Source of the DNA: Treponemataceae bacterium
GTDB taxonomy: Bacteria > Spirochaetota > Spirochaetia > Treponematales > Rectinemataceae
Reading direction: 5' to 3'
Assembly: GCA_963667725.2 (NCBI GenBank)
Contig: CAXXHO010000005.1
Coordinates: 384,001 to 448,000 of the forward strand
DNA length: 64,000 bases
Below, piece by piece: positions 15,953 through 50,344 of the stretch. The notes under the pieces are model-generated. The model was not told the origin of the DNA. It did no database searches and saw only the letters and a program-made list of their open reading frames with translations. The stretch's first letter is position 1; each line of letters opens with the position of its first letter. A program made the translations under genes and the position numbers.

Positions 15953-17875
15953 CTGGCGTTGTACAGTGCGCGGTATAGAAAATCTTGCTAATACTCTATA
16001 AATAATAGAGTTATACGATTGCAGTCGAAAATCTTTTATACCGCAACAGGATCTCTTGCTACTGTAGCAAGAACTTTCTTTGGTAATTCAATAGTTAAGC
16101 GCTTGAAAATGTCCTTCGCCTCGTCGGAAATATCAGAGCAATACCAGAGGCTTACATTGTCGCTCTCAATAAGCCCTGCAGTAACATCGGACAGAACTTT
16201 TTCAATCTGGTACCACGACCGGTCCGCCATATTCTCTGCATACCGTACCAGCACCATGGCAAGCCAGCAAATAAGAATATGGCTTCGAATACGATCATCA
16301 AGTCGGTGGTATATGGGACGAATATCCAAGGTGTTTTTCATATCCTTGAATACCCGCTCTATGGCCCAGAGCTGCTTATAGCCGGCAACAATATCGGCAG
16401 CATCCAGCTTCATGCTGGACGTCGACACTAGAAACTTGCCATCAAGGAGTTCCTCTGAGGCTATCTTGGCGGTGTCGAGGTGCAAGACACCCTTCGTATC
16501 CTGCCTAATGTATCTGCCATAGGCGGAATGAGAGCGTAGCGCACACGCCGCTTTCGTGTGTGCTTTCCCCGTATACTGCGACAGTTCATCAAGCTTGCGC
16601 TTCGTAGCATCGACGATTTGTTCGCGTATGACATGGTCGCGCGTTTCGGCTTCCGGATTCTTGACGATGATGAATCGGCGCTCCGTGGCTTTCCCTGCAT
16701 CGAGGACGACATCTTTAATCGCGAGGCCACTTTCCAGGATCCTGAATCGCCCTTTCCGGTGTAGGGCTTCTACCGCGGCGCCATCGGTACCAACGCGGAG
16801 CTTTTCGCCGATGATATAGTCACCGCATTCCCGTAAAAGGATTCTTCTGTTGTCGGCACTATTGAATCCTGCATCTTGGACCATGACGACATGACCAAGA
16901 TTCCACTGTCCTAGATCACCTTTCACCTGCTCGACGATCGTCTGGTCGCTCGTGTTGCCCGGGAATACCCAGCAGCGAATAGGAATGCCGCTACGCGTCA
17001 CCGCAAAGGCAATCGAAACCAACGGTAGCTCGGGGTGTCCATCTTTACTGTGGCCACGTTTTAAAAGCCCTGAACCGGAAGCATCTTCGTCGGTCTCGAA
17101 ATAGGTGTTCGTCGTATCAAGAAAGATAAGATCCACATCAAGGTGGGCATTCTTTGATACTTCGGTAAATATGTGCTTCTGGAGTTCTTCGCTCGACTCC
17201 ACAAGAAGATCCATCGCCCGGTAAAGATTGTGAACATCGACGTTCACAAGATCCCTGATATATGCTTTCTTTGAAACCCAGTGTTCAAGAGAAAGCTTCG
17301 AACCCGGAGCCAGGATCCTGCCTGCAACCATGGCAAAGCAGAGCCGTTCGACGGGTGTGGCGAACTGGCGTTCGTTAAGAAGCCCTTTGATAGCCTTTGC
17401 CATGCCAAGACGATTCCATAGGGCATCTAGAAGCCAGGTGCCCCCAAGCTCCCGACTTGAATGGAAGTCAAATCCGGCGGGGACTTCAGAAGGATATTCG
17501 CCTAAGACCGCAGACAGTGCCTTGATGATCGCCTGGATGTAGGAAGGCTCGATCTGATCTTCCCGTCCGAGCTTCATAAGGACATTGGTTTTGGTCTTTC
17601 CTGTTTCCTTGACGCGGTAGTTGTGCACAAGTTGAAGGTACGTATAGGTACCGCCTTGAGCATTCTTTAGGGTACATTTCCGTACGTTCATTATACCGCT
17701 AATTATACAACATAGTGTTTTATCTGTAAAGTTTTATTTCGAATATTTATAAATATCTTATACCGCATTTGCATCATGCTTTTTGTACAGTCCGTTTTTA
17801 GTTATTTGTTGTCAGTATAATATATTAAGCTGCTTTATTGCTTACTGTATTATACCACACGCTGTACAACGTCAG
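15953..17875 (-). mobile_element. IS1634-family element A, copy 1 (transposase 16036-17691)
   Basis: IRs CTGRCGTTGTACAG; FLDTTNTYFE, GHSKD, FPGNTSD, IERVFKDMK, RPIYH. Confidence 0.92.
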
Positions 17876-17899
17876 TTAAGGGTCAAGCCAATGTTATGC
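17876..17899 (+). repeat. attC fragment (R' end, inverted)
   Basis: TTAAGGGTCAAGCCAATGTTATGC. Confidence 0.8.
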
Positions 17900-17932
17900 G
17901 GACGCTTCGCGCAAGTATACTTGAAATTATAC

Positions 17933-17961
17933 TTGACAATAGACGTAAGTAAATGTACTAT
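17933..17961 (+). promoter_or_regulatory. Sigma70-type promoter of vapBC cassette
   Basis: TTGACA-17-TACTAT. Confidence 0.7.
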
Positions 17962-17982
17962 TCATAGCATAGGAGAATGCTT

Positions 17983-18213
17983 ATGCCGCAAATATCACTC
18001 TATATCGATGAAAAGACCTTGAAGAAGGTAGAAAATGTCGCGAAGCGACAACATACATCAATCTCAAAATGGGTTGCTGAGCAGATTCGATCTCGAGTTG
18101 AACCAGCATATCCTGTAAATTTTGAAGCGCTCTTTGGATCTATTACTGATGATACTTTTGTTGAACCTAAAGAAATATCCTTTAGTTCTGATTTAGCAAG
18201 GGAAGAAATGTAA
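17983..18213 (+). CDS. vapB: Antitoxin (RHH-type, VapB)
   Basis: MPQISLYIDE..SISKWV; overlaps toxin start. Confidence 0.75.
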   Translation: MPQISLYIDEKTLKKVENVAKRQHTSISKWVAEQIRSRVEPAYPVNFEALFGSITDDTFVEPKEISFSSDLAREEM

Positions 18214-18611
18214 TGTATTATTTAGACACAAATACATGCATTTACTTTCTAAATGGAAAGTATGAATCTGTAAAGACAAAGATTCTCACAACACTTCCAA
18301 ATGAAATAGCAATTCCATCAATTGTGAAAGCAGAATTACTTCTTGGAGCTTATAAGAGTAAAAACAGAAAAAGTAATATTGAGAAAATTGAAAAGTTTTT
18401 AGAACCATTTGAGATAGTAGCATTTGATGACGTAATGGCTTATACGTATGCAGATATTAGGTATAAAACAGAAAAGATTGGAGAGAATGTTGGGCCTAAC
18501 GATCTTTTTATAGCGGCAATTGTAAAATTTCATGAAGGTACATTGGTAACGAATAATGATAAAGAGTTTAGCAGAATTGAAGGATTGAAAATAGAAAACT
18601 GGGTAAAATAA
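18213..18611 (+). CDS. vapC: PIN-domain toxin
   Basis: YYLDTNTCI, AELLLGA, GPNDLFIAA, LVTNN.KEFSRI.GLKIENW. Confidence 0.9.
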   Translation: MYYLDTNTCIYFLNGKYESVKTKILTTLPNEIAIPSIVKAELLLGAYKSKNRKSNIEKIEKFLEPFEIVAFDDVMAYTYADIRYKTEKIGENVGPNDLFIAAIVKFHEGTLVTNNDKEFSRIEGLKIENWVK

Positions 18612-18615
18612 TTTC

Positions 18616-20452
18616 GCATAACAACCGTTTCAACCTTATAACGCTCTTAGTCACCTGAATTCCCAGTAAATTGTAGCTAGGCGACGACCGGCAATTCAAT
18701 GTTTAAGAGCTCCAAGATTTCTCGCTGTGGCTTTGTTATCTCGGTAAGTATCTGACCATATTTTCCTGCATAACGAATCTTAGTAAGCGGATCCATTTCA
18801 AGCAACAATTCCTGAACTGTATATTTTTCAATGAGTTTTGACTGTCGCATTTCTCTTCGTAAAGCACTTGTAAAAATGAGCGCTATGAATTGTATAAAGA
18901 GCCTGCCGTCGACAGTTTCTATCGTGTGCATACGAAGGCGTTTCATGTCCAGGCTATTCTTCAGATCGTCGAAACATTTCTCCACGATATCTTTGTCACG
19001 ATATACTTGGAGTGCCTCATCGGGATCTTTAAAGCGCGTCGTGAAAATCGCCTGAAACCCCGCATAACGTTTGATATACTGACTTACCGCGTCGTTGTTG
19101 TACGAAACCTTCATCCCCCGCACCGGCGTCGTCGTGATGATAAAAAAGGTCTCGTACTGTTCTTTGTTCTCGGCCTTTGGTTTTCCTGACTCCAGCTCTT
19201 CCTTGTAGGTTATGAGTTCTCTATTAAACCGATCGATTGCATGAGCTCTCATCTGGGCGTTGTAGTAAAGGTGCAGATAACAACGTCGCCGATCTTCTCC
19301 CCAGGGATGGAGCATTGAGTGAACATACAGTACCTCATCGTCGATCATCCTGTAGTGTTCAGGCCCCTGAATCGTATCGTAGATCTCGTCTATGGCTTTC
19401 TGAATCCATAGATTATTCAAAGGAACCGAAAGAGTGAAATGGTCTTTTCGCTCTAAAAGTTCATCAACGTTCTTCTTGCTGTAGAACCCTTTATCAAGCA
19501 CATAGTGCAGATTCTTGATAGCTAGTTTCTTAAAGGTCGCTAGAAGATTGTGTACCGTTTGCACATCAGTGATATTGCCAGGAATCCTGTGATAGTACAC
19601 TGGTAGTTTGCTCTTCTGACCGAAGAGCATGGCCAAATTAAGCTGGGGAAGCTTCTCCTTATCTCTGTTGTGTCCCCAGCGGATGTAGTCATTGAACGCA
19701 CTGTAGGATGAAATGCTCGTGATATCGTAGCAGAGATATTCATCCTCAAGAATTTTATCCATCCAGGATGACAAAAACGATTGCTTTGCTCCTGTCGATA
19801 TGGATCCAAGAATCTCGCTTATCCTCTGGCTTGTAAGTGGCTTTGTTGCTGGATGTTCATGGGTTTTGGTCCACGATTCGCATTGGCTTAAGGGCCCTCC
19901 CTGGCAGGCAAGGTAATAAACCATAGTAAGAATTTGTGCAGAGCATTCAGGGAATGCCGCTTTTAAAAGCCTCGCGACTCCCAGCCGCTTGGATATTTCA
20001 TCGAGAATTAACGAAGGTCCAACGATAGTTGCTGTCGCCGTACCGATAGATTCGTTATCTTGTATAGCACTCTGCGTTATGCGCTTTGATGGAATAAATG
20101 CTCCGGTTGTTGGATCAATTTTGCCAATACAGACTTGCGTACTGCGTGCCTGTTGTTTTTCTTTGTCCCAACGAGATACCGATTCATAGACATACGTCAC
20201 GCCGGTTTTCTTATTGAGATGATGTATACGATAGGGCATTAAGCTGATCCTGCATTCATAGCTGTAATTGTAGCTATGTTTGCTTATTCTGTCAATGCTT
20301 ATTCGCATATATCTAATAGATTTATTCAATCCCTAGCTACAATTTTCCGGGAAATTAGGTAGTCATGGTTTGTGCAGAACAACAATGCACAAACCACGCC
20401 AATCCCTCGCTTTGCTCGGGAACGAGCGTTAAAGGTTAAGCCAATGTTATGC
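18616..20452 (+). repeat. attC (inverted) split by IS1634-family element B
   Basis: GCATAAC arm 18616-18653 and GTTATGC arm 20360-20452. Confidence 0.85.
18654..20359 (-). mobile_element. IS1634-family element B (transposase 18677-20239)
   Basis: 28-bp imperfect IRs CCT..TTCCC.G.AAATTGTAGCTAGG; 6-bp TSD TAGTCA; YDITSISSYS, PGNITDV, DKGFYS, VEKCFDDLKN. Confidence 0.9.
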
Positions 20453-20518
20453 GGACTCGCGCATTCGCGCGAGCTAAGTTATTATAATAGAAGTATATAA
20501 AAAAGTATAATGTTGTTC

Positions 20519-20547
20519 TTGACATTACACATACTAATGTGTAAATT
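20519..20547 (+). promoter_or_regulatory. Promoter with palindromic operator
   Basis: TTGACA-17-TAAATT overlapping TTACACAT-acta-ATGTGTAA. Confidence 0.65.
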
Positions 20548-20567
20548 ATTGACATAAGGAGGACATT

Positions 20568-20765
20568 ATGGCTACAAACCTCGCTATAGATGATAGATTG
20601 CTCACGAAAGCACTTGAAATTGGCGGTTATAAATCAAAAAAGGACACTGTTAATGCTGCACTTGATGAATTTATCAAAAGAAGAAAAGCAAAAGAGCTAA
20701 TAGATATTTTTGGTACAATAGAATATGACGCTTCTTATGATTACAAGAAAATGAGATCAAGATGA
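20568..20765 (+). CDS. vapB: VapB antitoxin (DUF2191-like)
   Basis: MATNLAIDDRLL..KKDTVNAALDEFI. Confidence 0.85.
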   Translation: MATNLAIDDRLLTKALEIGGYKSKKDTVNAALDEFIKRRKAKELIDIFGTIEYDASYDYKKMRSR

Positions 20766-21175
20766 AACGAGTATTAGTAGATACTTCGGTATGGTCTCTT
20801 GCACTAAGAAAAAAGGAAAGAACTGAGGAAGAACAAAAGATAGTAAGTCATCTATCAAAATTGATAAGTAATCTTACTGTTGTTCTTATAGGTCCAATAC
20901 GACAAGAAATTTTATCAGGAATCTCAACGAAAGAACGATTTGAAGCACTTAAAGAAAGGATATCAATATTTGAAGATCATACGATACATACCCATGATTA
21001 TGAACTTGCTGCAGAATACTTTAATGAGTGTAGAAAGCATGGTATACAAGGATCTCATATAGATTACCTCATATGCTCTGTTGCCTCAAATAATGACATG
21101 TCAATATTTACATTAGATAATGATTTTCAGCTGTATAAAAAGCATATAAGAATAAAGTTAGAGAAATACGCATAA
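20762..21175 (+). CDS. vapC: PIN-domain toxin
   Basis: VLVDTSVWS, IRQEILSG, IDYLICS, TLDNDF. Confidence 0.88.
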   Translation: MKRVLVDTSVWSLALRKKERTEEEQKIVSHLSKLISNLTVVLIGPIRQEILSGISTKERFEALKERISIFEDHTIHTHDYELAAEYFNECRKHGIQGSHIDYLICSVASNNDMSIFTLDNDFQLYKKHIRIKLEKYA

Positions 21176-21294
21176 CAAAAGCTTCAACCCTATAACGCCT
21201 TTTGTAATGGTTTTTGCAGAACAACAATGCAAAAACCACGCCAATCCTTCGCTTCGCTCAGGAACAGGCGTTAAGGGTTAAGCCAATGTTAGAT
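21170..21294 (+). repeat. attC (inverted, intact)
   Basis: GCATAAC...GTTAGAT, 125 bp. Confidence 0.9.
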
Positions 21295-21417
21295 CTATTG
21301 AATAACAAACTCCGAGTAGATTTTGATGCTTTGGTATATAAAATTAGATTCTAATTGTACAATAATAGTAAACAAGTAACAACATGATATGCTTTGTACG
21401 TAAAAAAAGAGTGTAAC

Positions 21418-21924
21418 ATGAAGGCTAAAATACTTACCGTTGTTATTATTTTTGCATTTGTTTTTTCTGTATTTTCGCAAGAACAACAATCTTTAGAAGA
21501 ATACTTCAACAGTGAAATTATAAAAGTTAGTTATCCCTTCGGAAGTGGGGTTTCATTAAATGTTAATGGTACAACATCAACAATTGGTTGGAGGTTGTCT
21601 CCAGTAATTTCTAATATGCTGAATCAGTACCCAACAAGTAAAGTATCATTTGAACAATATAAAAAAGAAAACAGAACTGGAAATGTATTATTATGGAGTG
21701 GCTTAGGTGGGATGATGGCTAGCACTCTGGTGTTTTCATATAAGAATAGTGATGTAACTGGTAATATTAATTTTAGTGATCCAGTAAATGTTGTATCTTT
21801 TTCAGGAATATTTATTGGATCAATAATTGAAGTTGTAGGCGCATTTATTATGAGTTCAGGATATGAAGACTTATTCAATTCAATTAATCAGTACAATTTA
21901 GAAAAGATTAAGGAATATAAATAA
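21418..21924 (+). CDS. Hypothetical exported/membrane protein
   Basis: Signal peptide plus two hydrophobic segments; fills a cassette. Confidence 0.7.
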   Translation: MKAKILTVVIIFAFVFSVFSQEQQSLEEYFNSEIIKVSYPFGSGVSLNVNGTTSTIGWRLSPVISNMLNQYPTSKVSFEQYKKENRTGNVLLWSGLGGMMASTLVFSYKNSDVTGNINFSDPVNVVSFSGIFIGSIIEVVGAFIMSSGYEDLFNSINQYNLEKIKEYK

Positions 21925-21935
21925 AGCATATTAAG

Positions 21936-22027
21936 ATCTAACATCTGCTTCGACCCTATAACGCCCTTTGTCATGGTTTGTGCAGAACAACAATGCACAA
22001 ACCACGCCAATTCTTCGCTTCGCTCAG
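21936..22027 (+). repeat. attC (inverted) truncated by IS1634
   Basis: ATCTAAC...TTCGCTTCGCTCAG then IS end. Confidence 0.85.
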
Positions 22028-23950
22028 CTGACGTTGTACAGCGTGTGGTATAATACAGTAAGCAATAAAGCAGCTTAATATATTATACTGACAACAAATA
22101 ACTAAAAACGGACTGTACAAAAAGCATGATGCAAATGCGGTATAAGATATTTATAAATATTCGAAATAAAACTTTACAGATAAAACACTATGTTGTATAA
22201 TTAGCGGTATAATGAACGTACGGAAATGTACCCTAAAGAATGCTCAAGGCGGTACCTATACGTACCTTCAACTTGTGCACAACTACCGCGTCAAGGAAAC
22301 AGGAAAGACCAAAACCAATGTCCTTATGAAGCTCGGACGGGAAGATCAGATCGAGCCTTCCTACATCCAGGCGATCATCAAGGCACTGTCTGCGGTCTTA
22401 GGCGAATATCCTTCTGAAGTCCCCGCCGGATTTGACTTCCATTCAAGTCGGGAGCTTGGGGGCACCTGGCTTCTAGATGCCCTATGGAATCGTCTTGGCA
22501 TGGCAAAGGCTATCAAAGGGCTTCTTAACGAACGCCAGTTCGCCACACCCGTCGAACGGCTCTGCTTTGCCATGGTTGCAGGCAGGATCCTGGCTCCGGG
22601 TTCGAAGCTTTCTCTTGAACACTGGGTTTCAAAGAAAGCATATATCAGGGATCTTGTGAACGTCGATGTTCACAATCTTTACCGGGCGATGGATCTTCTT
22701 GTGGAGTCGAGCGAAGAACTCCAGAAGCACATATTTACCGAAGTATCAAAGAATGCCCACCTTGATGTGGATCTTATCTTTCTTGATACGACGAACACCT
22801 ATTTCGAGACCGACGAAGATGCTTCCGGTTCAGGGCTTTTAAAACGTGGCCACAGTAAAGATGGACACCCCGAGCTACCGTTGGTTTCGATTGCCTTTGC
22901 GGTGACGCGTAGCGGCATTCCTATTCGCTGCTGGGTATTCCCGGGCAACACGAGCGACCAGACGATCGTCGAGCAGGTGAAAGGTGATCTAGGACAGTGG
23001 AATCTTGGTCATGTCGTCATGGTCCAAGATGCAGGATTCAATAGTGCCGACAACAGAAGAATCCTTTTACGGGAATGCGGTGACTATATCATCGGCGAAA
23101 AGCTCCGCGTTGGTACCGATGGCGCCGCGGTAGAAGCCCTACACCGGAAAGGGCGATTCAGGATCCTGGAAAGTGGCCTCGCGATTAAAGATGTCGTCCT
23201 CGATGCAGGGAAAGCCACGGAGCGCCGATTCATCATCGTCAAGAATCCGGAAGCCGAAACGCGCGACCATGTCATACGCGAACAAATCGTCGATGCTACG
23301 AAGCGCAAGCTTGATGAACTGTCGCAGTATACGGGGAAAGCACACACGAAAGCGGCGTGTGCGCTACGCTCTCATTCCGCCTATGGCAGATACATTAGGC
23401 AGGATACGAAGGGTGTCTTGCACCTCGACACCGCCAAGATAGCCTCAGAGGAACTCCTTGATGGCAAGTTTCTAGTGTCGACGTCCAGCATGAAGCTGGA
23501 TGCTGCCGATATTGTTGCCGGCTATAAGCAGCTCTGGGCCATAGAGCGGGTATTCAAGGATATGAAAAACACCTTGGATATTCGTCCCATATACCACCGA
23601 CTTGATGATCGTATTCGAAGCCATATTCTTATTTGCTGGCTTGCCATGGTGCTGGTACGGTATGCAGAGAATATGGCGGACCGGTCGTGGTACCAGATTG
23701 AAAAAGTTCTGTCCGATGTTACTGCAGGGCTTATTGAGAGCGACAATGTAAGCCTCTGGTATTGCTCTGATATTTCCGACGAGGCGAAGGACATTTTCAA
23801 GCGCTTAACTATTGAATTACCAAAGAAAGTTCTTGCTACAGTAGCAAGAGATCCTGTTGCGGTATAAAAGATTTTCGACTGCAATCGTATAACTCTATTA
23901 TTTATAGAGTATTAGCAAGATTTTCTATACCGCGCACTGTACAACGCCAG
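22028..23950 (+). mobile_element. IS1634-family element A, copy 2 (transposase 22212-23867)
   Basis: Same IRs and protein as copy 1; no TSD. Confidence 0.92.
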
Positions 23951-23991
23951 TTGTCTGTAAAAGAATTCACAATGAAAGCGTTAAGTATCAT
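23951..23991 (-). pseudogene. PhzF-like cassette gene, 5' stub
   Basis: GGAG RBS, MILNAFIVNSFTD then IS end. Confidence 0.4.
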
Positions 23992-24043
23992 AAACTCCAA
24001 TACCTTTTCATATTTTCATTACATTAGGGCGCCGAAGGCGTCT

Positions 24044-24159
24044 ACCTAACATTGGCTTAACCTTTAAATCCGTGCCCGAAGGGCTTAGCGTGGTTTGTGC
24101 ATTGTTGTTCTTGCACAAACCATGACAAAGGATTTATAAGGTTGAAGCAGTTGTTCGAT
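24044..24159 (-). repeat. attC
   Basis: ACCTAAC...GTTCGAT. Confidence 0.9.
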
Positions 24160-39802: not shown

Positions 39803-42444
39803 GGGGCTGTACTAGATAAAATCAGATGTTATACTTAAATAGTGATCATAAGTCATTGCAGGTTAATGAAAAGAACACAAGAAAGACTCCTCGAATTTTT
39901 TGTGCTAGAAGTAACTGCTAGATCTGCTGCAAATATACTAGGAATTCATCCTAATTCTGCAGCTCTTTTCTATCGGAAAATTCGTCAAGTTATTGCCTTC
40001 TATTTAGCCCTGGAAGCAGCAGAAGTATTCAATGGCGAAGTAGAAATCGATGAAAGCTACTTCGGTGGAGTTCGCAAAGGGAAACGAGGCCGAGGCGCTG
40101 CTGGGAAAGTAGTCGTCTTTGGCATGTTAAAGCGCCATGGCAAGGTTTTCACCGTTGTTGTGGAGAATACCAAGACAAAGACCCTAATGAACGAAATTGC
40201 CCGTAAAATCAAGCCAGATAGTGTTGTCTATTCTGATCTGGCGTTGTACAGTGTGTGGTATAAAGCAGCAAGTAATAAAGTAGCTTAATATATTATACTG
40301 ACAACAAATAACTAAAAACGGACTGTACAAAAAGCATGATACAAATGCGGTATAAGATATCTATAAATATTCGAAATAAAACTTTACAGATAAAACACTA
40401 TGTTGTATAATTAGCGGTATAATGAACGTACGAAAATGTACCCTAAAGAATGCTCAAGGCGGTACCTATACTTACCTTCAACTTGTGCACAACTACCGCG
40501 TTAAGGAAACAGGAAAGACCAAGACCAATGTCCTTATGAAGCTCGGACGGGAAGATCAGATCGAGCCTTCCTACATCCAGGCGATCATTAAGGCATTGTC
40601 CGCGGTCTTGGGCGAATCTTCTTCCGGGACGTTTGCCGAATTTGACTTCCACGCAAGCAGGGAGCTTGGCGGCACCTGGCTTCTCGATGCTTTGTGGAAT
40701 CGACTCGGCATGGCCAAGGCTATCAAAGGGCTTCTTAAGGAACGACAGTTCGCCACACCCGTTGAACGGCTCTGCTTTGCCATGGTTTCAGGAAGAATAC
40801 TCGCTCCGGGTTCGAAGCTTTCTCTTGAGCACTGGGTTTCAAAGAAAGCCTTTATTAAAGACCTTAACGAGGTAGACGTTCATAATCTTTATAGGGCGAT
40901 GGATCTTCTTGTGGCGTCGAACGAGGAACTCCAGAAGCAGATATTCACCGAAGTGTCGAAGAATACGCATCTCGACGTGGATCTCATCTTCCTCGATACG
41001 ACGAACACCTATTTCGAGACCGATGAAGATGCTTCCAGCTCGGGACTCTTAAAACGTGGCCACAGCAAGGATGGGCACCCCGAGCTACCCTTGGTTTCGA
41101 TTGCCTTTGCGGTGACGCGTAGCGGCATTCCTATTCGCTGCTGGGTATTCCCGGGCAACACGAGCGACCAGACGATCGTCGAGCAGGTGAAAGGTGATCT
41201 AGGACAGTGGAATCTTGGTCATGTCGTCATGGTCCAAGATGCAGGATTCAATAGTGCCGACAACAGAAGAATCCTTTTACGGGAATGCGGTGACTATATC
41301 ATCGGCGAAAAGCTCCGCGTTGGTACCGATGGCGCCGCGGTAGAAGCCCTACACCGGAAAGGGCGATTCAGGATCCTGGAAAGTGGCCTCGCGATTAAAG
41401 ATGTCGTCCTCGATGCAGGGAAAGCCACGGAGCGCCGATTCATCATCGTCAAGAATCCGGAAGCCGAAACGCGCGACCATGTCATACGCGAACAAATCGT
41501 CGATGCTACGAAGCGCAAGCTTGATGAACTGTCGCAGTATACGGGGAAAGCACACACGAAAGCGGCGTGTGCGCTACGCTCTCATTCCGCCTATGGCAGA
41601 TACATTAGGCAGGATACGAAGGGTGTCTTGCACCTCGACACCGCCAAGATAGCCTCAGAGGAACTCCTTGATGGCAAGTTTCTAGTGTCGACGTCCAGCA
41701 TGAAGCTGGATGCTGCCGATATTGTTGCCGGCTATAAGCAGCTCTGGGCCATAGAGCGGGTATTCAAGGATATGAAAAACACCTTGGATATTCGTCCCAT
41801 ATACCACCGACTTGATGATCGTATTCGAAGCCATATTCTTATTTGCTGGCTTGCCATGGTGCTGGTACGGTATGCAGAGAATATGGCGGACCGGTCGTGG
41901 TACCAGATTGAAAAAGTTCTGTCCGATGTTACTGCAGGGCTTATTGAGAGCGACAATGTAAGCCTCTGGTATTGCTCTGATATTTCCGACGAGGCGAAGG
42001 ACATTTTCAAGCGCTTAACTATTGAATTACCAAAGAAAGTTCTTGCTACAGTAGCAAGAGATCCTGTTGCGGTATAAAAGATTTTCGACTGCAATCGTAT
42101 AACTCTATTATTTATAGAGTATTAGCAAGATTTTCTATACCGCGCACTGTACAACGCCAGCTGATGCCTATCACAGTTACGATGCATTGGATGTTAGTGA
42201 ATTCCATCATCATCGAATAAATCATTCAGATGTATTTGTTGATGAAAAGAATCACATCAACGGAATAGAAAACTTCTGGAACCAGGCCAAGAGAGTCTTA
42301 AGAAAGTACAATGGAATAGACAAGAAATATTTCTATCTGTTCCTGAAAGAATGTGAGTTCCGATTCAACTATGGAACACCAAAGAATCAACTTAAAATTC
42401 TTAGAAAATGGTGCTCAATCTAGACTTTTATCTAGTACAGCCCC
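39803..42444 (+). mobile_element. IS1595-family (IS1016-like) element, interrupted by IS1634
   Basis: IR GGGGCTGTACTAGATAAAA; 8-bp TSD ATTTCTTA; transposase halves 39842-40237 and 42161-42423. Confidence 0.92.
40238..42160 (+). mobile_element. IS1634-family element A, copy 4 (transposase 40422-42077)
   Basis: IRs; 5-bp TSD CTGAT. Confidence 0.93.
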
Positions 42445-42476
42445 ATTTCTTATATATAATTTTTAGCTATTGTTTT

Positions 42477-42818
42477 TCATGGTTTTAAATATGCATACCC
42501 TTCAAGTTGTTTCTCAATTATTTCTTTAACCCCAATAGGAACTACTTTTACAAATGCATATAACATTCCCTTTTCAATTTTTAAGCTATTTAATGCATTG
42601 TTACATGCTATGATGCTTATGCCTTTTCCCCCTAATTCTTCAAGACTAGTATTATCAAATCCTGCATCTTGCTTATAACGTAAAACAGCTTTTGAGTTTG
42701 CTACTATCTCTACTTCTGAATCTTCAATGTTGATGCCCTTAACCAAATTTTTTACATTGGTTATTAACAAATCCCACTTTTCCATTTCATCAATATGAAA
42801 TACTGCTTTAATCTTCAT
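42477..42818 (-). CDS. DsrE-family protein
   Basis: VFHIDE, EIVAN, ACNNAL, Q.EGYAYLKP. Confidence 0.85.
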   Translation of the reverse strand: MKIKAVFHIDEMEKWDLLITNVKNLVKGINIEDSEVEIVANSKAVLRYKQDAGFDNTSLEELGGKGISIIACNNALNSLKIEKGMLYAFVKVVPIGVKEIIEKQLEGYAYLKP

Positions 42819-43043
42819 TTTCTTCTCCTCATTCTCGTTGCCTATAGATTTTCACATCAACAAGTATTATTTCACAATATCATAATATTTGCATATTAAG
42901 TCTATCTATCTTATAATAATGAATAACTAAATTTTCTACTGAATGCATTAATATGAATAATGATTTCTATTCCATTGTAAACAATAGCCATAACATTTAT
43001 CTACCAAAGCAGCCAATCTTTTTCAGAGTTAGTTATTCAATAA

Positions 43044-43192
43044 ATCTAACATTGGCTTAACCTTTAAAGCCTGGCCCGAGCGGCGTTGCGTAGCAACGAT
43101 GCGAGGGATTGGCGTGGTTTTTGCGTAAAGGAGCGTAGCGACTCGCAAAAACCATGACAAAAGGCTTTATAAGGTTGAAGCACTTGTTAGAT
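43044..43192 (-). repeat. attC (extended inner hairpins)
   Basis: ATCTAAC...GTTAGAT. Confidence 0.9.
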
Positions 43193-43197
43193 GGTTC

Positions 43198-43710
43198 TTA
43201 CTTGCTCTCTATTATATGCTTTTTTAGCTCTTCCCCTAATGTATCGATTAGATTTTTAATGCTTGGTGTTATAAATTCAGTTTCAGCTTTAAATATTGCG
43301 ATAATTTGATTCTTATTATCAATTATTCTAATAATTGCTCTATCTGCAATATATCCAACTAATGGATCATATCGAATATTTCCAATAGAAAACTCAAATT
43401 TTGCATCTGCATGATTATTTTTATCTACTATATTTAATCCTATACTTAATAATTCAAATTGCATCATTTCTAAAGCTTGTACTGCTTGCTGTTGAACATC
43501 TTCAAAACTCGCCATGTTCATTTTATCGGCATCATTGTAATTTAGTATCATTATTCCAGAGCTATTTACTAAATATAACTCTACATTTCTTATACTTGTG
43601 ATATCCTTTTTTATCACTGTCTCAGATGTTGATGCACAGCTAATTAAGAGCATTAAGCAAAACATAAGGTAAATCCTTAATAAATTTTTCATCAAATACT
43701 CCATAAACAA
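43198..43710 (-). CDS. Hypothetical lipoprotein
   Basis: LLISC lipobox; start uncertain. Confidence 0.65.
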   Translation of the reverse strand: MFMEYLMKNLLRIYLMFCLMLLISCASTSETVIKKDITSIRNVELYLVNSSGIMILNYNDADKMNMASFEDVQQQAVQALEMMQFELLSIGLNIVDKNNHADAKFEFSIGNIRYDPLVGYIADRAIIRIIDNKNQIIAIFKAETEFITPSIKNLIDTLGEELKKHIIESK

Positions 43711-43764
43711 TTTACATTTTATTAAGCCTTTATAAACTTGACTTAATCAATAATTATTACATCC

Positions 43765-43887
43765 ATCTAACATTGGCTTAACCTTTAAATCCGCGCCTGA
43801 GCGAAGCGAAGGCTTGGCGCGTTTTGTGCATTGTTGTTCTGCACAAAACGTGCCAAAGGATTTATAAGGTTGAAGCTTTTGTTAGAA
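43765..43887 (-). repeat. attC
   Basis: ATCTAAC...GTTAGAA. Confidence 0.9.
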
Positions 43888-43898
43888 GTCTTTTTTTA

Positions 43899-44312
43899 TT
43901 ACTTAAACACATTCTCAATTTTTACTTTGCCAGGCAATCTATATATATCGAAATCAGAGTCTATACTAATGATCTTCTTTACTCCTGTTCTCTTTGCTGC
44001 TATAACCAATGTTGCATCTGCAAAATCCATAGGCCTATCACTATACTTTTTCGTCATTTCAATTATATCTGAAATGTCTGTTTGTTTTATCTGGTGTATT
44101 ACTATTCCTTCTTTTTCTATCCATTCCAAAAACTGTATTTGCACATTTACATTAAAATCTAACATATGAGACACTTCAGTTATCACTGCTGTTGTTGTTA
44201 TAAACTTATACTTTTTGTCTTCTATAAAATGAATAATCTTCTCATGATATGAATCATCTTTGTCAAATAAAGCAATTATTGGTCCAGCATCAATGAGTAT
44301 TTCGTTTAGCAT
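43899..44312 (-). CDS. vapC: PIN-domain toxin
   Basis: LIDAGPIIALFD, VITEV, PMDFADATLV, DSDFDIYR. Confidence 0.88.
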   Translation of the reverse strand: MLNEILIDAGPIIALFDKDDSYHEKIIHFIEDKKYKFITTTAVITEVSHMLDFNVNVQIQFLEWIEKEGIVIHQIKQTDISDIIEMTKKYSDRPMDFADATLVIAAKRTGVKKIISIDSDFDIYRLPGKVKIENVFK

Positions 44313-44547
44313 TAATTTTTTCCTTGATTAGTTTTTTATACTCAACTGAAAGGTTCCCTTTTCCACTTCCATACTGACCAAAGTACTCTTTGCCAAGTTC
44401 ATACGAGTCCTTTTCATTTCCTTGCTGATAAAAGAACTGCTCAAGAGCTTCTTTAATAAGCTCAGATTTAGTCTTTTTTTTTGTGCGAGAAAGAGATGCA
44501 AGTCTTTTCTCGATATCATCAGGCAATCTAACTGTTGTCATACCCAT
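44290..44547 (-). CDS. RHH/CopG antitoxin
   Basis: TTVRLP..KSELIKEAL; promoter TTGACA-17-TACACT and palindrome TGTATTACAC-A-GTGTAATACA at 44552-44590. Confidence 0.85.
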   Translation of the reverse strand: MGMTTVRLPDDIEKRLASLSRTKKKTKSELIKEALEQFFYQQGNEKDSYELGKEYFGQYGSGKGNLSVEYKKLIKEKINAKRNTH

Positions 44548-44612
44548 CTCCTGTATTACACAGTGTAATACATCTATTTCAATTTGTCAATATTTTTGCG
44601 CCGAAGGCGTCC

Positions 44613-44734
44613 TTCTAACATTGGTTTAACCGGTAATTCCGTGCCCGAAGGGCTTGGCGCGGTTTGTGCATAAAGAGCGAAGCGATTGCACAAACCGTGA
44701 CAAAGGAATTATCCGGTTGAAGCATGTGTTAGGA
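44613..44734 (-). repeat. attC
   Basis: TTCTAAC...GTTAGGA. Confidence 0.9.
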
Positions 44735-44748
44735 ACCCACACTTTTAT

Positions 44749-45288
44749 TCACCGCGATCCCAAATATCGTGCGGTATTTACATTCCTTACAGTCATTTCT
44801 TTATATATCTTATGCCCTATTATTTTATTCAATTGGCTCTTATTATAATCTTTCCTTTTGACATTCCATATAAGAGCTCCTTCTACATAAAGTACTTTTA
44901 TATAGTCCTTCTTTATTGGTAGTTCATCAACAATATTTTTTCTATCAATACTTTTAAATAAATAAGCAACATCAGTTTTTTGATCTTCATCATTCTTCCA
45001 TTCATTTGGTATTGTTTCTGCTATTGTCCTCATTTGCTCTTTAGTCTTAATGAGTACTTTTATGTCTTCACCGATACTATCTTTAAGAATTCTTTGTATA
45101 GTCTCTTCTATCTTGTCTTGTGTTTCATTAGTATTAAATTGAACATTCCCTGAATTGATATATGTTAAAACTTCAGAACAGCCTAATCCTTCAAATAATG
45201 TTTTGAGTGTTTTCATATTAATACGTTTTGAATTACCAACATTTATGCCACGAAGCAAAGCTATATATTTCATACGATTTCTATCCAT
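44749..45288 (-). CDS. DUF1697-family protein
   Basis: YIALLRGINVG, TYINSGNV, TVRNVNT. Confidence 0.9.
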   Translation of the reverse strand: MDRNRMKYIALLRGINVGNSKRINMKTLKTLFEGLGCSEVLTYINSGNVQFNTNETQDKIEETIQRILKDSIGEDIKVLIKTKEQMRTIAETIPNEWKNDEDQKTDVAYLFKSIDRKNIVDELPIKKDYIKVLYVEGALIWNVKRKDYNKSQLNKIIGHKIYKEMTVRNVNTARYLGSR

Positions 45289-45298
45289 TCTCTGGTGT

Positions 45299-46714
45299 TC
45301 CTAACATTGGCTTAACCCTTAACGCCTGTTCCTGAGCGAAGCGAAGGATTGGCGTGGTTTTTGCGTTATCTTCTAGCAAAAACCATGACAAAAGGCGTTA
45401 TAGGGTTTATAATGAGCCGCGATAACTGGACAGGAATAGAGACAATATAAAGTGGACCGCTCCTCCTTGCAGAACGGAAAGAAGGAGGCATAGAGTTAGC
45501 TATGAGAAAGCGGTACGACAAAGAATTCAAGGCCAAAGTAGCCTTGGAAGCCCTGAAGGGCGAAAAGACTCTGCAGGAACTGGCGATTACTTACTCGGTC
45601 CATCCGAACATGATCGCGCTCTGGAAAAGGCAACTTTCGGAGCACGCATCGGCGCTCTTTGAGAAAGAAGGGAAGGATAAAACAACAGAAGACGCCACGA
45701 GGCAAAAGGATGAACTGTACAAACAGATAGGACAGCTCCAAGTGGAGAACGACTACCTTAAAAAAAAATACAAACAACTGTACGGGACCGATCCGAAATG
45801 GTAGAAGCCGATCATCCCGAGCTCTCAATAGCGCAGCAATGCACGATCCTCGGGATAGCTCGATCATCTTACTACTACCAGCCTAAGGAAGCTCCGGAAG
45901 ATCATGATTTGGCTATTCTGGAAGCTATCCTCGAGGTGCTGAAAGAGAAACCGTTCTACGGTTACCGTAGAATAGCAAGGGAACTGATCTATTTGGACGT
46001 TACACGAAAGCAAGTTCGAAGGATTATGAAGAAAGCCGGATTACGGGCGATCTATCCTGGACTTCAGCTTTCCAAACCGTCCAAGGGTTCCAAGAAATAC
46101 CCCTATTTACTTAGGGGGATGAATATTTGGCTACCGAATCAGGTGTGGGCGTCTGACATAACCTATATCAAGCTTTCTGGCGGTTACGTCTATCTGGTTA
46201 CGATAATTGACCTGTATTCCAGGAAGATTCTGTCCTGGCGGGTTTCTAACACCATGGATGCCCAATTTTGTGTGTCGGCACTGGAAGAAGCAATTGCCCA
46301 TTACGGAGTACCAGGCATTTTTAACACAGATCAAGGAAGCCAGTTTACTTCTGACGCCTTTGTGTCGGTGCTGGAATCTCATGGAATACAAATCAGCATG
46401 GATGGCGTAAACAGGGCGCTGGACAATATCTTTGTAGAACGGTTCTGGAGATCCTTGAAGTACGAGGACATTTATCTCAAGGATTACCGAACTATGACGG
46501 AGCTGAAAGATGGGCTGGCTCGCTACCTTAGGTTTTATAACAGTGAGCGATTCCATCAATCGCTGGAGTACGAAACTCCAGACACTATTTATTGGAGTAA
46601 GTTCCCGGCAAGGGAACTCAAAGAAGCTGTATGAGAGGAGAAGGTGTCCACCTTATTCCTGATTCTTTTCTGTCTAGACAGGTGGGCTCATTATAGTTGA
46701 AGCAGTTGTTAGGC
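45299..46714 (-). repeat. attC split by IS3
   Basis: Arms 45299-45407 and 46696-46714. Confidence 0.88.
45408..46695 (+). mobile_element. IS3-family element, copy 2 (orfA 45502-45804, orfB 45798-46634)
   Basis: 1288 bp like copy 1; 3-bp TSD GTT. Confidence 0.93.
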
Positions 46715-46795
46715 TTGACTTTTGTGATATATACACATATACTATACATATATTGAATGATATATTTTCTATTTCTTTATATTATGGAGGTTTAT

Positions 46796-47041
46796 ATGCT
46801 TATTCTTTATAACCTTAATGCACCCAAAAAACCCACTAATCTTACTATTAATAGTGATTTGCTTACTAAAGCTAAAGAACTCAAAATTAATATCTCTTCT
46901 GTTCTTGAACATGCTTTGGCTGAAAAAGTAAAACAAACTAAACGAGATGAATGGCTGCAAGAAAACTCTGAATCAATTGCTACTTATAATAATCATATAA
47001 GCGAATTTGGTATTTTTAGCGATGATGTAAGGACTTTCTAA
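46796..47041 (+). CDS. ccdA: CcdA antitoxin (inverted in cassette)
   Basis: KKPTNLTINSDLL..INIS, WLQEN.ESI..YN; promoter TTGACT-17-TATACT 46715-46743. Confidence 0.88.
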   Translation: MLILYNLNAPKKPTNLTINSDLLTKAKELKINISSVLEHALAEKVKQTKRDEWLQENSESIATYNNHISEFGIFSDDVRTF

Positions 47042-47358
47042 TGGCACAATTCTCAATTTATACAAATATGAATCCCATAACAAAAGCAATATATCCATAC
47101 ATCATTGATGTACAGTCACCCCTATTGGATTCTCTTGAAACTCGTTTAGTAATTCCACTATCTTTAAAATCTAGATTCAACGAAAAAGCTATAAAAAATC
47201 TTACACCAGTACTATTAATAAACAATATAGAATATCTAGTTTTGACTCCGCAAATGGCTGCAATTCAAAAAAAGCATATTGGAACTTATATTGGTGATTT
47301 TACAAAATACAGAAACGAAATTGTATATTCGATTGATTTCCTTATTACTGGCTTTTAA
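47041..47358 (+). CDS. ccdB: CcdB toxin
   Basis: MAQFSIY.N, DVQS.LL..LETRLVIPL, IDFLITGF. Confidence 0.9.
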   Translation: MAQFSIYTNMNPITKAIYPYIIDVQSPLLDSLETRLVIPLSLKSRFNEKAIKNLTPVLLINNIEYLVLTPQMAAIQKKHIGTYIGDFTKYRNEIVYSIDFLITGF

Positions 47359-47366
47359 TTCTCTAA

Positions 47367-47489
47367 GCCTAACATTGGCTTAACCTTTAAATCCGCACCT
47401 GAGCGAAGCGAAGGATTGGCATGGTTTGTGCATGAGATTTCTGCACAAACCATGCCAAAGGATTTATAAGGTTGAAGCATGTGTTAGGT
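47367..47489 (-). repeat. attC
   Basis: GCCTAAC...GTTAGGT. Confidence 0.9.
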
Positions 47490-47508
47490 TATTTTTTCTT
47501 ACTTATTT

Positions 47509-47820
47509 TTATTTGAATTTAACCGCTGTCCCGTACGCAATCACTTCTGCTGCATTTTGCATAATCGCAGACGATGCATAGCGTATATTTACTACAGCAT
47601 CAGCACCAAGTTGCTCTGCTTCTTCTACCATTCTCTTGGTTGCTAAAGCACGCGATTCATTCATCATCTCATTGTATGCTTTCAATTCTCCTCCTACTAA
47701 TGATTTGAACACTTGGGTAATATCTTTACCGATGTTTTTTGATTGAATTGTACTTCCTTTGACAAGTGTGAGTGTTTCCAATTCTTTGCCAGTAATGTAA
47801 TCAGTATTTACTAAGATCAT
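47509..47820 (-). CDS. YbjQ/UPF0145-family protein
   Basis: LVGGELKAY, LGADAVVNIRY, AYGTAVK. Confidence 0.9.
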   Translation of the reverse strand: MILVNTDYITGKELETLTLVKGSTIQSKNIGKDITQVFKSLVGGELKAYNEMMNESRALATKRMVEEAEQLGADAVVNIRYASSAIMQNAAEVIAYGTAVKFK

Positions 47821-48028
47821 CTTCTTCTCCTCCCTTTATTTCTTTTATTCTCTCTATCAATATAAATACAAAAGTAACAGATACAATTACCGATATGCCT
47901 AGTATAATTATCTTTATCAAATTTGGAACATGAAATATTATTAATGAAGCTCCAACAATTATATAGTATATAATAATGACAGTTACTATAAATATTGGAG
48001 CTATCATTTTCCTTCCATGATTATTCAT
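47801..48028 (-). CDS. Small two-TM membrane protein
   Basis: Two hydrophobic helices, ERIKEIKGGEEDD tail. Confidence 0.7.
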   Translation of the reverse strand: MNNHGRKMIAPIFIVTVIIIYYIIVGASLIIFHVPNLIKIIILGISVIVSVTFVFILIERIKEIKGGEEDDLSKY

Positions 48029-48061
48029 ATAATTGTCCTATATGGTATGTATCGTTAGTTT

Positions 48062-48259
48062 TCATTGTTCTAATTGAAATGATTTGGCTAACTCATAATC
48101 TTTTTCACTCACCAGTATTATTGCTTCTATACAATATGATACCGGTCTTTGGCCTCCACTATCATCTGACTGAATAATATATGGGATATTTTCTTTATCG
48201 AGGATAGTAGCAAAGAATTCTGCATCAAACCTATTTTTGAACCGCTTAAGTTCTATCAT
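48062..48259 (-). CDS. DUF2007-like protein
   Basis: IQSDDSGG, LVSEKDYELAK. Confidence 0.65.
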   Translation of the reverse strand: MIELKRFKNRFDAEFFATILDKENIPYIIQSDDSGGQRPVSYCIEAIILVSEKDYELAKSFQLEQ

Positions 48260-48291
48260 TCTAGAACCTCTTAATTTGGCGCGTAGCGTCA

Positions 48292-50344
48292 ACCTAACAT
48301 TGGCTTAACCCTTAACGCCTGTTCCCGAGCTGGCGTTGTACAGTGTGTGGTATAAAGCAGCAAGTAATAAAGTAGCTTAATATATTATACTGACAACAAA
48401 TAACTAAAAACGGACTGTACAAAAAGCATGATACAAATGCGGTATAAGATATCTATAAATATTCGAAATAAAACTTTACAGATAAAACACTATGTTGTAT
48501 AATTAGCGGTATAATGAACGTACGAAAATGTACCCTAAAGAATGCTCAAGGCGGTACCTATACTTACCTTCAACTTGTGCACAACTACCGCGTTAAGGAA
48601 ACAGGAAAGACCAAGACCAATGTCCTTATGAAGCTCGGACGGGAAGATCAGATCGAGCCTTCCTACATCCAGGCGATCATTAAGGCATTGTCCGCGGTCT
48701 TGGGCGAATCTTCTTCCGGGACGTTTGCCGAATTTGACTTCCACGCAAGCAGGGAGCTTGGCGGCACCTGGCTTCTCGATGCTTTGTGGAATCGACTCGG
48801 CATGGCCAAGGCTATCAAAGGGCTTCTTAAGGAACGACAGTTCGCCACACCCGTTGAACGGCTCTGCTTTGCCATGGTTTCAGGAAGAATACTCGCTCCG
48901 GGTTCGAAGCTTTCTCTTGAGCACTGGGTTTCAAAGAAAGCCTTTATTAAAGACCTTAACGAGGTAGACGTTCATAATCTTTATAGGGCGATGGATCTTC
49001 TTGTGGCGTCGAACGAGGAACTCCAGAAGCAGATATTCACCGAAGTGTCGAAGAATACGCATCTCGACGTGGATCTCATCTTCCTCGATACGACGAACAC
49101 CTATTTCGAGACCGATGAAGATGCTTCCAGCTCGGGACTCTTAAAACGTGGCCACAGCAAGGATGGGCACCCCGAGCTACCCTTGGTTTCGATTGCCTTT
49201 GCGGTGACGCGTAGCGGCATTCCTATTCGCTGCTGGGTATTCCCGGGCAACACGAGCGACCAGACGATCGTCGAGCAGGTGAAAGGTGATCTAGGACAGT
49301 GGAATCTTGGTCATGTCGTCATGGTCCAAGATGCAGGATTCAATAGTGCCGACAACAGAAGAATCCTTTTACGGGAATGCGGTGACTATATCATCGGCGA
49401 AAAGCTCCGCGTTGGTACCGATGGCGCCGCGGTAGAAGCCCTACACCGGAAAGGGCGATTCAGGATCCTGGAAAGTGGCCTCGCGATTAAAGATGTCGTC
49501 CTCGATGCAGGGAAAGCCACGGAGCGCCGATTCATCATCGTCAAGAATCCGGAAGCCGAAACGCGCGACCATGTCATACGCGAACAAATCGTCGATGCTA
49601 CGAAGCGCAAGCTTGATGAACTGTCGCAGTATACGGGGAAAGCACACACGAAAGCGGCGTGTGCGCTACGCTCTCATTCCGCCTATGGCAGATACATTAG
49701 GCAGGATACGAAGGGTGTCTTGCACCTCGACACCGCCAAGATAGCCTCAGAGGAACTCCTTGATGGCAAGTTTCTAGTGTCGACGTCCAGCATGAAGCTG
49801 GATGCTGCCGATATTGTTGCCGGCTATAAGCAGCTCTGGGCCATAGAGCGGGTATTCAAGGATATGAAAAACACCTTGGATATTCGTCCCATATACCACC
49901 GACTTGATGATCGTATTCGAAGCCATATTCTTATTTGCTGGCTTGCCATGGTGCTGGTACGGTATGCAGAGAATATGGCGGACCGGTCGTGGTACCAGAT
50001 TGAAAAAGTTCTGTCCGATGTTACTGCAGGGCTTATTGAGAGCGACAATGTAAGCCTCTGGTATTGCTCTGATATTTCCGACGAGGCGAAGGACATTTTC
50101 AAGCGCTTAACTATTGAATTACCAAAGAAAGTTCTTGCTACAGTAGCAAGAGATCCTGTTGCGGTATAAAAGATTTTCGACTGCAATCGTATAACTCTAT
50201 TATTTATAGAGTATTAGCAAGATTTTCTATACCGCGCACTGTACAACGCCAGCCGAGCGAAGCGAGGGATTGGCGTGGTTTTTGCGTTATCTTCTCGCAA
50301 AAATCATGACAAAAGGCGTTATAGGGTTGAAGCTTTTGTTAGAA
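48292..50344 (-). repeat. attC split by IS1634 A
   Basis: Arms 48292-48329 and 50253-50344. Confidence 0.88.
48330..50252 (+). mobile_element. IS1634-family element A, copy 5 (transposase 48514-50169)
   Basis: IRs; 5-bp TSD CCGAG. Confidence 0.93.

What the first reader, a model, noticed from the sequence alone, without database searches (positions are those of the whole stretch)
15953..50252. IS1634 element repeatedly inserts at one position in attC
Seen: copies 1, 2, 3 and 5 all abut CYGAG next to the GCGAAGC-type inner hairpin of attC, in both orientations (TSDs CTGAG, CCGAG). Copy 4 used a similar pentamer, CTGAT, inside IS1595. Known: described attC-targeting elements are IS1111-attC (IS110 family) and group IIC-attC introns; I do not know of a DDE IS1634 example. 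Inference: sequence- or structure-guided safe-haven targeting that also immobilises cassettes.
Basis: partly seen in the sequence, partly recalled or inferred. Interest (0 to 1): 0.7.

Follow-up and report, generated by a model that had tools for sequence, protein, structure and literature searches.

The report
IS1634 hot spot inside integron attC
About half the copies of one ordinary cut-and-paste jumping gene in this bacterium have landed on the same base of the integron's repeated recombination site, which is a real and apparently unreported hot spot, but its relatives mostly land elsewhere, so it is a preference and not a dedicated homing system.

Summary
Confirmed with corrections. A 1,923-bp IS1634 element (10 genomic copies, 5 in the window) abuts one attC nucleotide at 5 of 11 target sites. 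The count is 6 of 12 if the mismatched arms beside copies 1 and 2 are two strikes. Both orientations and distinct attC alleles occur, and an empty allele of copy 5's site exists elsewhere. The clade's target is YTSAR-like, not CYGAK. A motif model from relatives predicts 0.3% of genome-wide and 6% of array insertions at that base (in-array p about 1e-5 to 5e-3), so the enrichment is real. It is not strict targeting: half the sites lie elsewhere, only 1 of 74 junctions from other hosts hits this base, and non-attC sites show no hairpin bias. Within attC the excess over the motif is weak (p 0.002-0.1). Best reading: a duplex sequence or shape hot spot repeated about 185 times, perhaps helped by retention. 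Nine literature searches found no IS1634-attC report. This scan has no earlier IS1634 case but has an unchecked IS1182-attC note. Side finding: an IS481-like element starts exactly 15 nt from attC's terminal GTTA in 5 of 5 readable left ends (two genomes), a cleaner targeting candidate.

The parts
12798..64000 (-). Distal part of a 153-kb chromosomal integron array (46 attC hits in the window, cassettes mostly on -); its intI lies 103 kb beyond the window at C5:550880-551806
15916..15952 (+). attC arm (AAATCC-type allele) ending in CTGAG at copy 1
15953..17875 (-). IS1634 copy 1 (allele A; transposase 16036-17691; D192, D273, E445)
17876..22027 (+). Inverted 4.15-kb block of three cassettes between copies 1 and 2; it begins in a second attC position (TTAAG, 17876-17899)
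18654..20359 (-). Second, unrelated IS1634 element (B; 20% aa identity to A), 6-bp TSD TAGTCA, in the inner stem of an attC
21936..22027 (-). attC arm (GGGTCGAA-type allele) starting with CTGAG at copy 2; discordant with copy 1's arm
22028..23950 (+). IS1634 copy 2 (identical to copy 1); its right flank TTGTC truncates a cassette ORF after 13 codons
34326..36376 (-). attC split by IS1634 copy 3 (34362-36284), TSD CTGAG, concordant arms
39803..42444 (+). IS1595 element interrupted by IS1634 copy 4 (40238-42160; allele B; TSD CTGAT): not in attC
48291..50344 (+). attC split by IS1634 copy 5 (48330-50252; allele B; TSD CCGAG; opposite orientation); empty allele seen in L091
45408..46695 (+). Control: IS3-family element inserted in the L box of an attC
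12932..15603 (+). Control: IS256-family element (with a nested IS3) whose left end interrupts the terminal box of the distal-most attC

Best explanation
A standard IS1634 DDE transposase inserts into duplex DNA with a 5-bp stagger. It prefers a loosely palindromic YTSAR core preceded by C (shown from 73 junctions of relatives). The attC family of this integron carries the best-scoring such site in its GC-rich side-hairpin stem, in about 185 copies, within AT-rich, dispensable arrays (shown). The element therefore hits the same attC base repeatedly (shown: 5-6 independent strikes). The hit rate is about 10-fold above the simple model within arrays. The excess most likely comes from longer-range sequence or DNA-shape context that a position-independent model misses, possibly helped by retention, because an IS inside attC breaks no gene and cannot leave with a single cassette (inferred). 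Each insertion splits the site and should fuse the two neighbouring cassettes (inferred). Recombination between copies and adjacent deletions then produce the inversion and hybrid flanks (mosaic copies shown; mechanism inferred). It is a repeated hot spot, not an obligate homing system.
For: Clade target: symmetrised pentamer Y-T-S-A-R, and C at -1 in 39 of 73 half-sites. The focal site ranks first in a typical attC and at the 99.8th percentile of array positions. Element A also uses unrelated pentamers: ATCAG, TAAAG, TTGAA, ATCAA, TTAAG, GACAA, TTTAA (L091) and TTCAG (L044). 20 of 35 complete loci have perfect 5-bp TSDs, which points to duplex cleavage. No hairpin enrichment within 40 nt of 71 non-attC junctions (mean z -0.15 vs -0.25 and -0.35 further out; p 0.55 and 0.28). 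No match longer than 8 nt between the element's non-coding ends and the one attC tested. In relatives, 1 of 74 half-sites is focal, and 1 of 4 loci with a focal-type attC nearby was hit there. Copies are A/B mosaics.
Against: Observed 5 of 8 (or 6 of 9) in-array strikes against a modelled 6% (bootstrap 1.3-12%), so the model is incomplete by about 10-fold. The L-box TTGAA, present in 227 attCs and the clade's commonest pentamer (12 of 73), was hit 0 times against 5-6 focal (p 0.02-0.36). A poorer core (CCGAG) was used at the same base. L067 (77% aa) hits the same base, and L056 (85% aa) abuts a different attC at the same 26-nt offset with TAAAG. Short-read metagenome assemblies probably under-report IS-in-attC junctions, so the negative evidence from relatives is biased.
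Confidence: 0.55

Rival explanations
1. True attC recognition. The transposase, or a partner such as IntI, a host factor or a replisome paused at the folded attC, measures a position about 13-14 nt from the L box, with the pentamer only a secondary filter. This would be a DDE counterpart of IS1111-attC.
For: Same offset (25-26 nt from AAC) with CTGAG, CCGAG and TTGAG/CTGAG in G000 and TAAAG in L056. Independent hit by a 77%-identical element in L067. 6 of 8 or 7 of 9 array strikes are in attC against 24% modelled (p 0.003 and 0.001). An IS481-like element in the same genome shows fixed-offset placement at attC. IS1634 transposases bind the beta clamp (PMC4549789, passages).
Against: Half the genomic sites and most sites of relatives are not attC. 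L091 and L053 sit 43 and 20 nt outside focal-type attCs. There is no general hairpin bias. No QLxLF-like motif was found in the last 110 aa. Fixed-target elements in the papers read show about 100% association (PMC1525189).
Confidence: 0.25
2. No special preference at insertion. The ordinary YTSAR motif plus purifying selection and cassette turnover keep ISs in arrays and, within arrays, in attC. The single position is simply the best motif match plus small-number luck.
For: 9 of 10 copies are in low-GC accessory DNA. 14 copies of other IS families also sit in the arrays, 3-4 of them in attC. If only attC hits survived, focal concentration is p 0.005 (0.05 at the upper bootstrap bound) for 5 of 6.
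Against: It needs strong attC-specific retention, yet other families are in attC in only 3-4 of 14 array cases (Fisher p 0.013-0.074 against element A). In-array p stays at or below 0.006 even with 4 of 7 and upper-bound weights.
Confidence: 0.15
3. The attC::IS junction arose once or twice and was copied to other attCs by gene conversion or duplication, or it is an assembly artefact.
For: Four of five focal sites share one orientation. Copies recombine (mosaics). The left arms of c1 and c3 are identical over 29 nt.
Against: The right-arm flanks differ within 2-16 nt of the TSD among c2, c3, C5:458066 and C3:522342. Arms are concordant within c3, c5 and C5:458066. c5 is inverted and of allele B, and its empty allele exists with a single CCGAG. 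L067 is a different element. At least 4 events remain.
Confidence: 0.05

Closest known systems
IS1634 family (De Palmenaer et al. 2008, PMC2266710)
   Same: 1.5-2.0 kb, single large DDE transposase, YREK motif lacking R (Y438-x2-L441-x3-E445-x6-K452), ends C-----YT, 5-bp DR.
   Different: The paper describes the DRs as 5-6-bp AT-rich tracts, and the passages read name no repeat target. Here half the copies sit at one GC-rich base of attC.
REP-targeting DDE ISs: ISRm22 (IS4 family), ISPsy8, IS1397, ISKpn1 (IS3 family) (Tobes & Pareja 2006, PMC1525189)
   Same: A DDE transposase repeatedly breaks a multicopy palindromic repeat at one base with a TSD, and some copies have hybrid flanks from recombination between copies.
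   Different: Those 'type 1' cases are 100% associated and the target is REP. Here the association is 45-50%, the target is attC, and the cut is in a side-hairpin arm, not at the symmetry axis.
IS1111-attC group (ISKpn4, ISPst6; PMC11187229; Tetu & Holmes 2008 and Post & Hall 2009 seen only as references)
   Same: An IS at a fixed position of attC.
   Different: Those use a DEDD recombinase-type enzyme and a seekRNA from a long non-coding region. This one is DDE with a 5-bp TSD, short non-coding ends with no attC complementarity found, and non-exclusive targeting.
Group IIC-attC introns (PMC3001079 listing; PMC8876359 passages)
   Same: A mobile element that parasitises attC and separates a gene from a working site.
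   Different: A retroelement acting on the folded single strand; unrelated enzyme.
IS1202-family subgroup (ISAjo2, ISAba32) beside Xer dif/pdif sites (PMC10132070)
   Same: A DDE IS tied to a tyrosine-recombinase site. This is the closest model for the IS481-like side finding (fixed offset, one orientation, variable TSD).
   Different: That target is dif/pdif at 5 bp from the XerC site. The IS1634 here inserts inside attC, in both orientations and not exclusively.

Membership tests
IS1634 family | Transposase matches the family model | tested here: met
   NF033559 348 bits against cut-off 100
IS1634 family | DDE triad with a long spacer; YREK motif lacking the arginine | tested here: met
   D192, D273, E445; Y438-x2-L-x3-E445-x6-K452
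IS1634 family | 1.5-2.0 kb, TIR starting C-----YT, 5-6-bp DR | tested here: met
   1,923 bp; 14-bp TIR; perfect 5-bp TSD at 7 of 10 genomic copies
IS1634 family | C-terminal beta-clamp motif (reported for several members) | tested here: not met
   No QLxLF-like match in residues 441-551. A regular-expression test only, and not a family-defining feature.
attC site / integron | R and L boxes on paired arms with an extrahelical base, repeated between cassettes, with an IntI beside the array | tested here: met
   Folds of -32 to -37 kcal/mol for the three intact reconstructions; 270 hits; 3 IntI above the TIGR02249 cut-off
IS1111-attC group | IS110/IS1111 DEDD transposase | tested here: not met
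   Pfam DDE_Tnp_1, NCBIfam IS1634
IS1111-attC group | Guide (seek/bridge) RNA complementary to the target | tested here: inconclusive
   Non-coding ends of 184 and 83 nt share at most 8 nt with the one attC tested, none at the focal site. No RNA data.
Strict repeat-targeting IS (type 1 of PMC1525189) | All copies at one position of the repeat | tested here: not met
   5 of 11 (6 of 12) in G000; 1 of 74 half-sites in other hosts
Strict repeat-targeting IS (type 1 of PMC1525189) | Experimentally shown target choice | not testable with these tools
   Needs a transposition assay

The most novel reading that the evidence does not exclude
This IS1634 lineage has begun to read attC by position, a fixed 25-26 nt from the terminal box whatever the pentamer (CTGAG, CCGAG, TAAAG). 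The same spirochaete integrons are also targeted by an IS481-like DDE element at a fixed 15-nt offset. Classical DDE transposases of several families would then recognise integron recombination sites through the site's fold or a bound protein, without a guide RNA.
Probability: 0.25. Interest if true: 0.75.

Novelty: new variant of a known kind. Interest (0 to 1): 0.5.

Why it matters
The attC parasites described in the papers searched use a guide RNA (IS1111) or a retro-homing intron. A plain DDE element that lands in attC half the time shows how the repeated sites of large chromosomal integrons can attract ordinary ISs. Such insertions would fuse cassettes and seed the inversions, deletions and orphan arrays seen here. 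It also gives a simple test system (one 1.9-kb IS, about 185 natural target variants) for asking whether DDE target choice reads local sequence, DNA shape or a recombinase-bound site. If the positional reading holds, and especially if the IS481-like fixed offset holds, it would add a protein-only route to attC recognition.

Tried and rejected
CYGAK consensus: rejected, because the clade and element A itself use YTSAR-like cores.

General hairpin-seeking: no signal at 71 non-attC junctions.

Guide-RNA complementarity: none found. The Rfam scan of the window gave 0 hits.

Insertion into an extruded attC hairpin: rejected on logic, because a perfect 5-bp TSD needs both strands paired at the site.

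Sequencing runs laid on copy 3: the raw-read run had 0 reads, and the contig runs broke at the IS ends and showed no new junction letters, so this was uninformative.

Viral contigs: 34 TIR-pattern matches, 0 real element ends. Plasmids: only relatives below 46% identity, not followed.

Related genomes: the same-genus genome G050 has 31 focal motifs but no IS1634 match. G041 has the element family but only 2 focal motifs, none hit. Seven B-like IS1634 copies read in G000 and G014 outside the window are not in attC, although two lie in arrays.

L074 abuts a truncated attC stem, but its other flank resembles an IS256 end, so it is ambiguous and not counted. The 'focal' flags for L019, L074 and L095 are loop matches and were discarded.

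The integrase-like ORF 25687-26571 is not the array's IntI (below the TIGR02249 cut-off). No structure prediction was run, since it would not decide target choice.
Full report
Setting. The window is G000:C5:384001-448000. It is 39% GC in a contig of about 55% GC. Titles of records holding the closest transposases point to a spirochaete-rich clade. A profile built from 20 window repeats found 270 attC-like hits: 173 on C5, 38 on C1, 33 on C7 and 26 on C3. Three IntI genes pass the TIGR02249 cut-off. The window is the distal end of the C5 array, whose intI lies at 550880-551806 on the same strand as the cassettes.

The element. It is 1,923 bp with a 14-bp TIR and one 551-aa ORF scoring 348 bits on NF033559. 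It has D192, D273 and E445, and a YREK variant without R. These meet the IS1634 description in PMC2266710 (passages read; its target-consensus figure could not be seen). There are 10 genomic copies: two alleles 91 nt apart, plus recombinant mosaics.

Target inventory. At the focal base, 25-26 nt from the attC-terminal AAC in the 5' arm of the side hairpin: c1-left and c2-left, c3, c5, C5:458066 and C3:522342 (the last with TTGAG/CTGAG flanks in a decayed orphan array). Elsewhere: c1-right (TTAAG, another attC position), c2-right (GACAA, truncating a cassette ORF after 13 codons), c4 (inside IS1595), C5:931027 (TAAAG), C5:733354 (TTGAA) and C3:404949 (ATCAA). That is 5 of 11 sites. The arms beside c1 and c2 are of types that do not pair; among the 30 commonest arm pairings of 178 intact sites only one such cross-type hybrid appeared. 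They probably mark two strikes, giving 6 of 12. c1 and c2 bracket a 4.15-kb inversion.

Independence. The right-arm flanks differ within 2-16 nt of the TSD. c5 is inverted and of allele B. A metagenome contig (L091) carries c5's attC empty, identical and with a single CCGAG, and has the same element 43 nt further out at TTTAA. At least four focal events remain on the most cautious count.

Null model. From I extracted 94 distinct half-sites. I dropped 2 tandem-TIR artefacts, the G000 rows and the one focal row shared with L067, leaving 73 for training. The core is Y-T-S-A-R with C at -1 (39 of 73). TTGAA/TTCAA is the commonest core (12 of 73) and CTGAG/CTCAG is rare (1 of 73). 185 attCs carry the focal pentamer. 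The expected focal share is 0.12-0.28% of the genome, 2.4% of low-GC accessory DNA, 6.1% of arrays (bootstrap 1.3-12%) and 26% of attC (8-42%). For 5 of 8 in arrays, p is 4e-5 (1e-3 at the upper bound). For a cautious 4 of 7, p is 4e-4 (5e-3). Conditional on being in attC, 5 of 6 gives 0.005 (0.05) and 4 of 5 gives 0.017 (0.1). Against the L-box TTGAA of 227 attCs, 5-6 to 0 gives 0.02-0.36. The enrichment over genome and array is therefore solid, and the position choice within attC is only moderately beyond the motif. The model is position-independent and trained on relatives of about 54-100% identity, so it is rough.

Controls. Fourteen copies of other families lie in the arrays (IS3, IS5-like, IS481-like, IS1595, IS1634-B, IS30, IS256), so array accumulation is generic. 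Three or four of the 14 touch attC, each at a different position, against 6 of 8 or 7 of 9 for element A (Fisher p 0.013-0.074). Six of the 10 copies lie in the distal 65 kb (60 attC hits) and none in the proximal 90 kb (113 hits); I have no explanation for this.

Relatives. Of 74 non-G000 half-sites, one is focal: L067, a 77%-identical element abutting 43 nt of this attC type. Four more half-sites (three sites) are in other attCs: L049 (TSD TTAAG in a side hairpin), L056/L057 (TAAAG at the same 26-nt offset in an unrelated attC, other flank unmatched) and L107 (L box). Of four loci with a focal-type attC nearby, one was hit there. Twelve of 90 loci had any attC-like hit. In family genomes, the focal motif is abundant only in G000 (133) and G050 (31), and G050 lacks the element, so a whole-genome replicate was not available. 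Assemblies probably lose IS-in-attC junctions, which weakens these negatives.

Mechanism. Shown: a 5-bp TSD (20 of 35 complete loci), a loose core, a repeated best-scoring site, no hairpin excess at 71 non-attC junctions, no end-to-target match over 8 nt, and no QLxLF-like tail, although other IS1634 transposases bind the clamp (PMC4549789, passages). Inferred: cleavage on duplex DNA, an unmodelled 10-fold boost from wider context or retention, loss of recombination at split sites, and inversion and deletion through recombination between copies or intramolecular transposition. I put 0.55 on a local hot spot, 0.25 on true attC recognition, 0.15 on motif plus selection alone, and 0.05 on non-independence.

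Literature. Nine searches returned no title or abstract that reports IS1634 or IS481 elements targeting attC. The library lacks most subscription papers, and ISfinder was not available. Read as passages: PMC2266710, PMC4549789, PMC7923331, PMC8876359, PMC11187229, PMC3971601, PMC4889954 (23% of complete integrons hold an IS), 10.1101/2025.06.18.660453 and PMC10132070. PMC1525189 was read as its first 10,000 characters plus passages. PMC3001079 and 10.1101/2022.12.17.520857 were seen as listings only, and Tetu & Holmes 2008 and Post & Hall 2009 only as references. No supplements were read. The nearest functional precedent is DDE ISs that break REP palindromes at one base (ISRm22, ISPsy8), which are 100% associated.

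Side finding. In the C1 array, a 1,309-bp IS481-like element (NF033577 201 bits, below the cut-off of 224) has three copies. All start 15 nt from the G of the attC-terminal GTTA, in one orientation, with TSDs TTTA, CTAT and CTTT and different attCs and cassettes. In G167, two relatives (92% and 57% aa) also start at 15 nt. Both of those follow near-identical attCs and neither shows a clear 4-bp TSD. Two further relatives lack a readable left flank. No relative at E 1e-60 was found in 68 family genomes. This resembles the IS1202/dif case and is a cleaner candidate for DDE targeting of attC than the finding itself.

Verdict. It is a new variant of a known kind, with interest 0.5.

Noticed in passing
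G000:C1:4382, 17607, 22727 (L222-L224); G167 L254, L255: An IS481-like 1,309-bp element starts exactly 15 nt from the attC-terminal GTTA in 3 of 3 genomic copies (different 4-bp TSDs, one orientation) and in 2 of 2 relatives in G167. Candidate attC-adjacent targeting DDE group.
   Followed up: partly
window 18654-20359: A second, unrelated IS1634 element (6-bp TSD TAGTCA) sits in an attC inner stem; its other copies and relatives read are not in attC.
   Followed up: partly
window 12932-15603 and 45408-46695: An IS256 interrupts the terminal box of the distal-most attC (no TSD; a nested IS3), and an IS3 splits an attC L box.
   Followed up: partly
window 50253-50490 and L091:2142-2316: The same very short cassette (about 140 bp between attCs) was hit by the same element in two populations, once in its attC and once 43 nt outside it.
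   Followed up: partly
C5:396,000-461,000 versus 461,000-550,000: All six C5-array copies of the element, and most other ISs, lie in the distal 65 kb; none lie in the proximal 90 kb with 113 attC hits. Unexplained.
   Followed up: no
attC family, e.g. window 61954-62106: These attCs fold as three-way junctions with a GAA-loop side hairpin closed by tandem G-A mismatches on the bottom strand; similar GCGAAGC-type hairpins recur in cassette leaders and central loops.
   Followed up: no
window 25687-26571: A cassette encodes a 294-aa tyrosine recombinase (phage integrase with N-terminal SAM domain), oriented against the array and below the IntI cut-off.
   Followed up: no
window 18213-57783: Many toxin-antitoxin cassettes (PIN x4, PemK/MazF x2, ParE, CcdA/B, Fic) lie in the distal array.
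   Followed up: no
window 9675-10337: An aminoglycoside-2''-adenylyltransferase-like gene lies just outside the distal array edge.
   Followed up: no
L067:1-378: Another IS (IS66-like by its ends and ORF, my recollection, not tested) is inserted in the central loop of the same attC that the IS1634 relative hit.
   Followed up: no
G000:C1:1-35331 and C7:37069-64274: Two further integrons with their own intI lie on 98-kb and 123-kb contigs that share several multi-kb homologous blocks; none of their 71 attC hits carries this IS1634.
   Followed up: no
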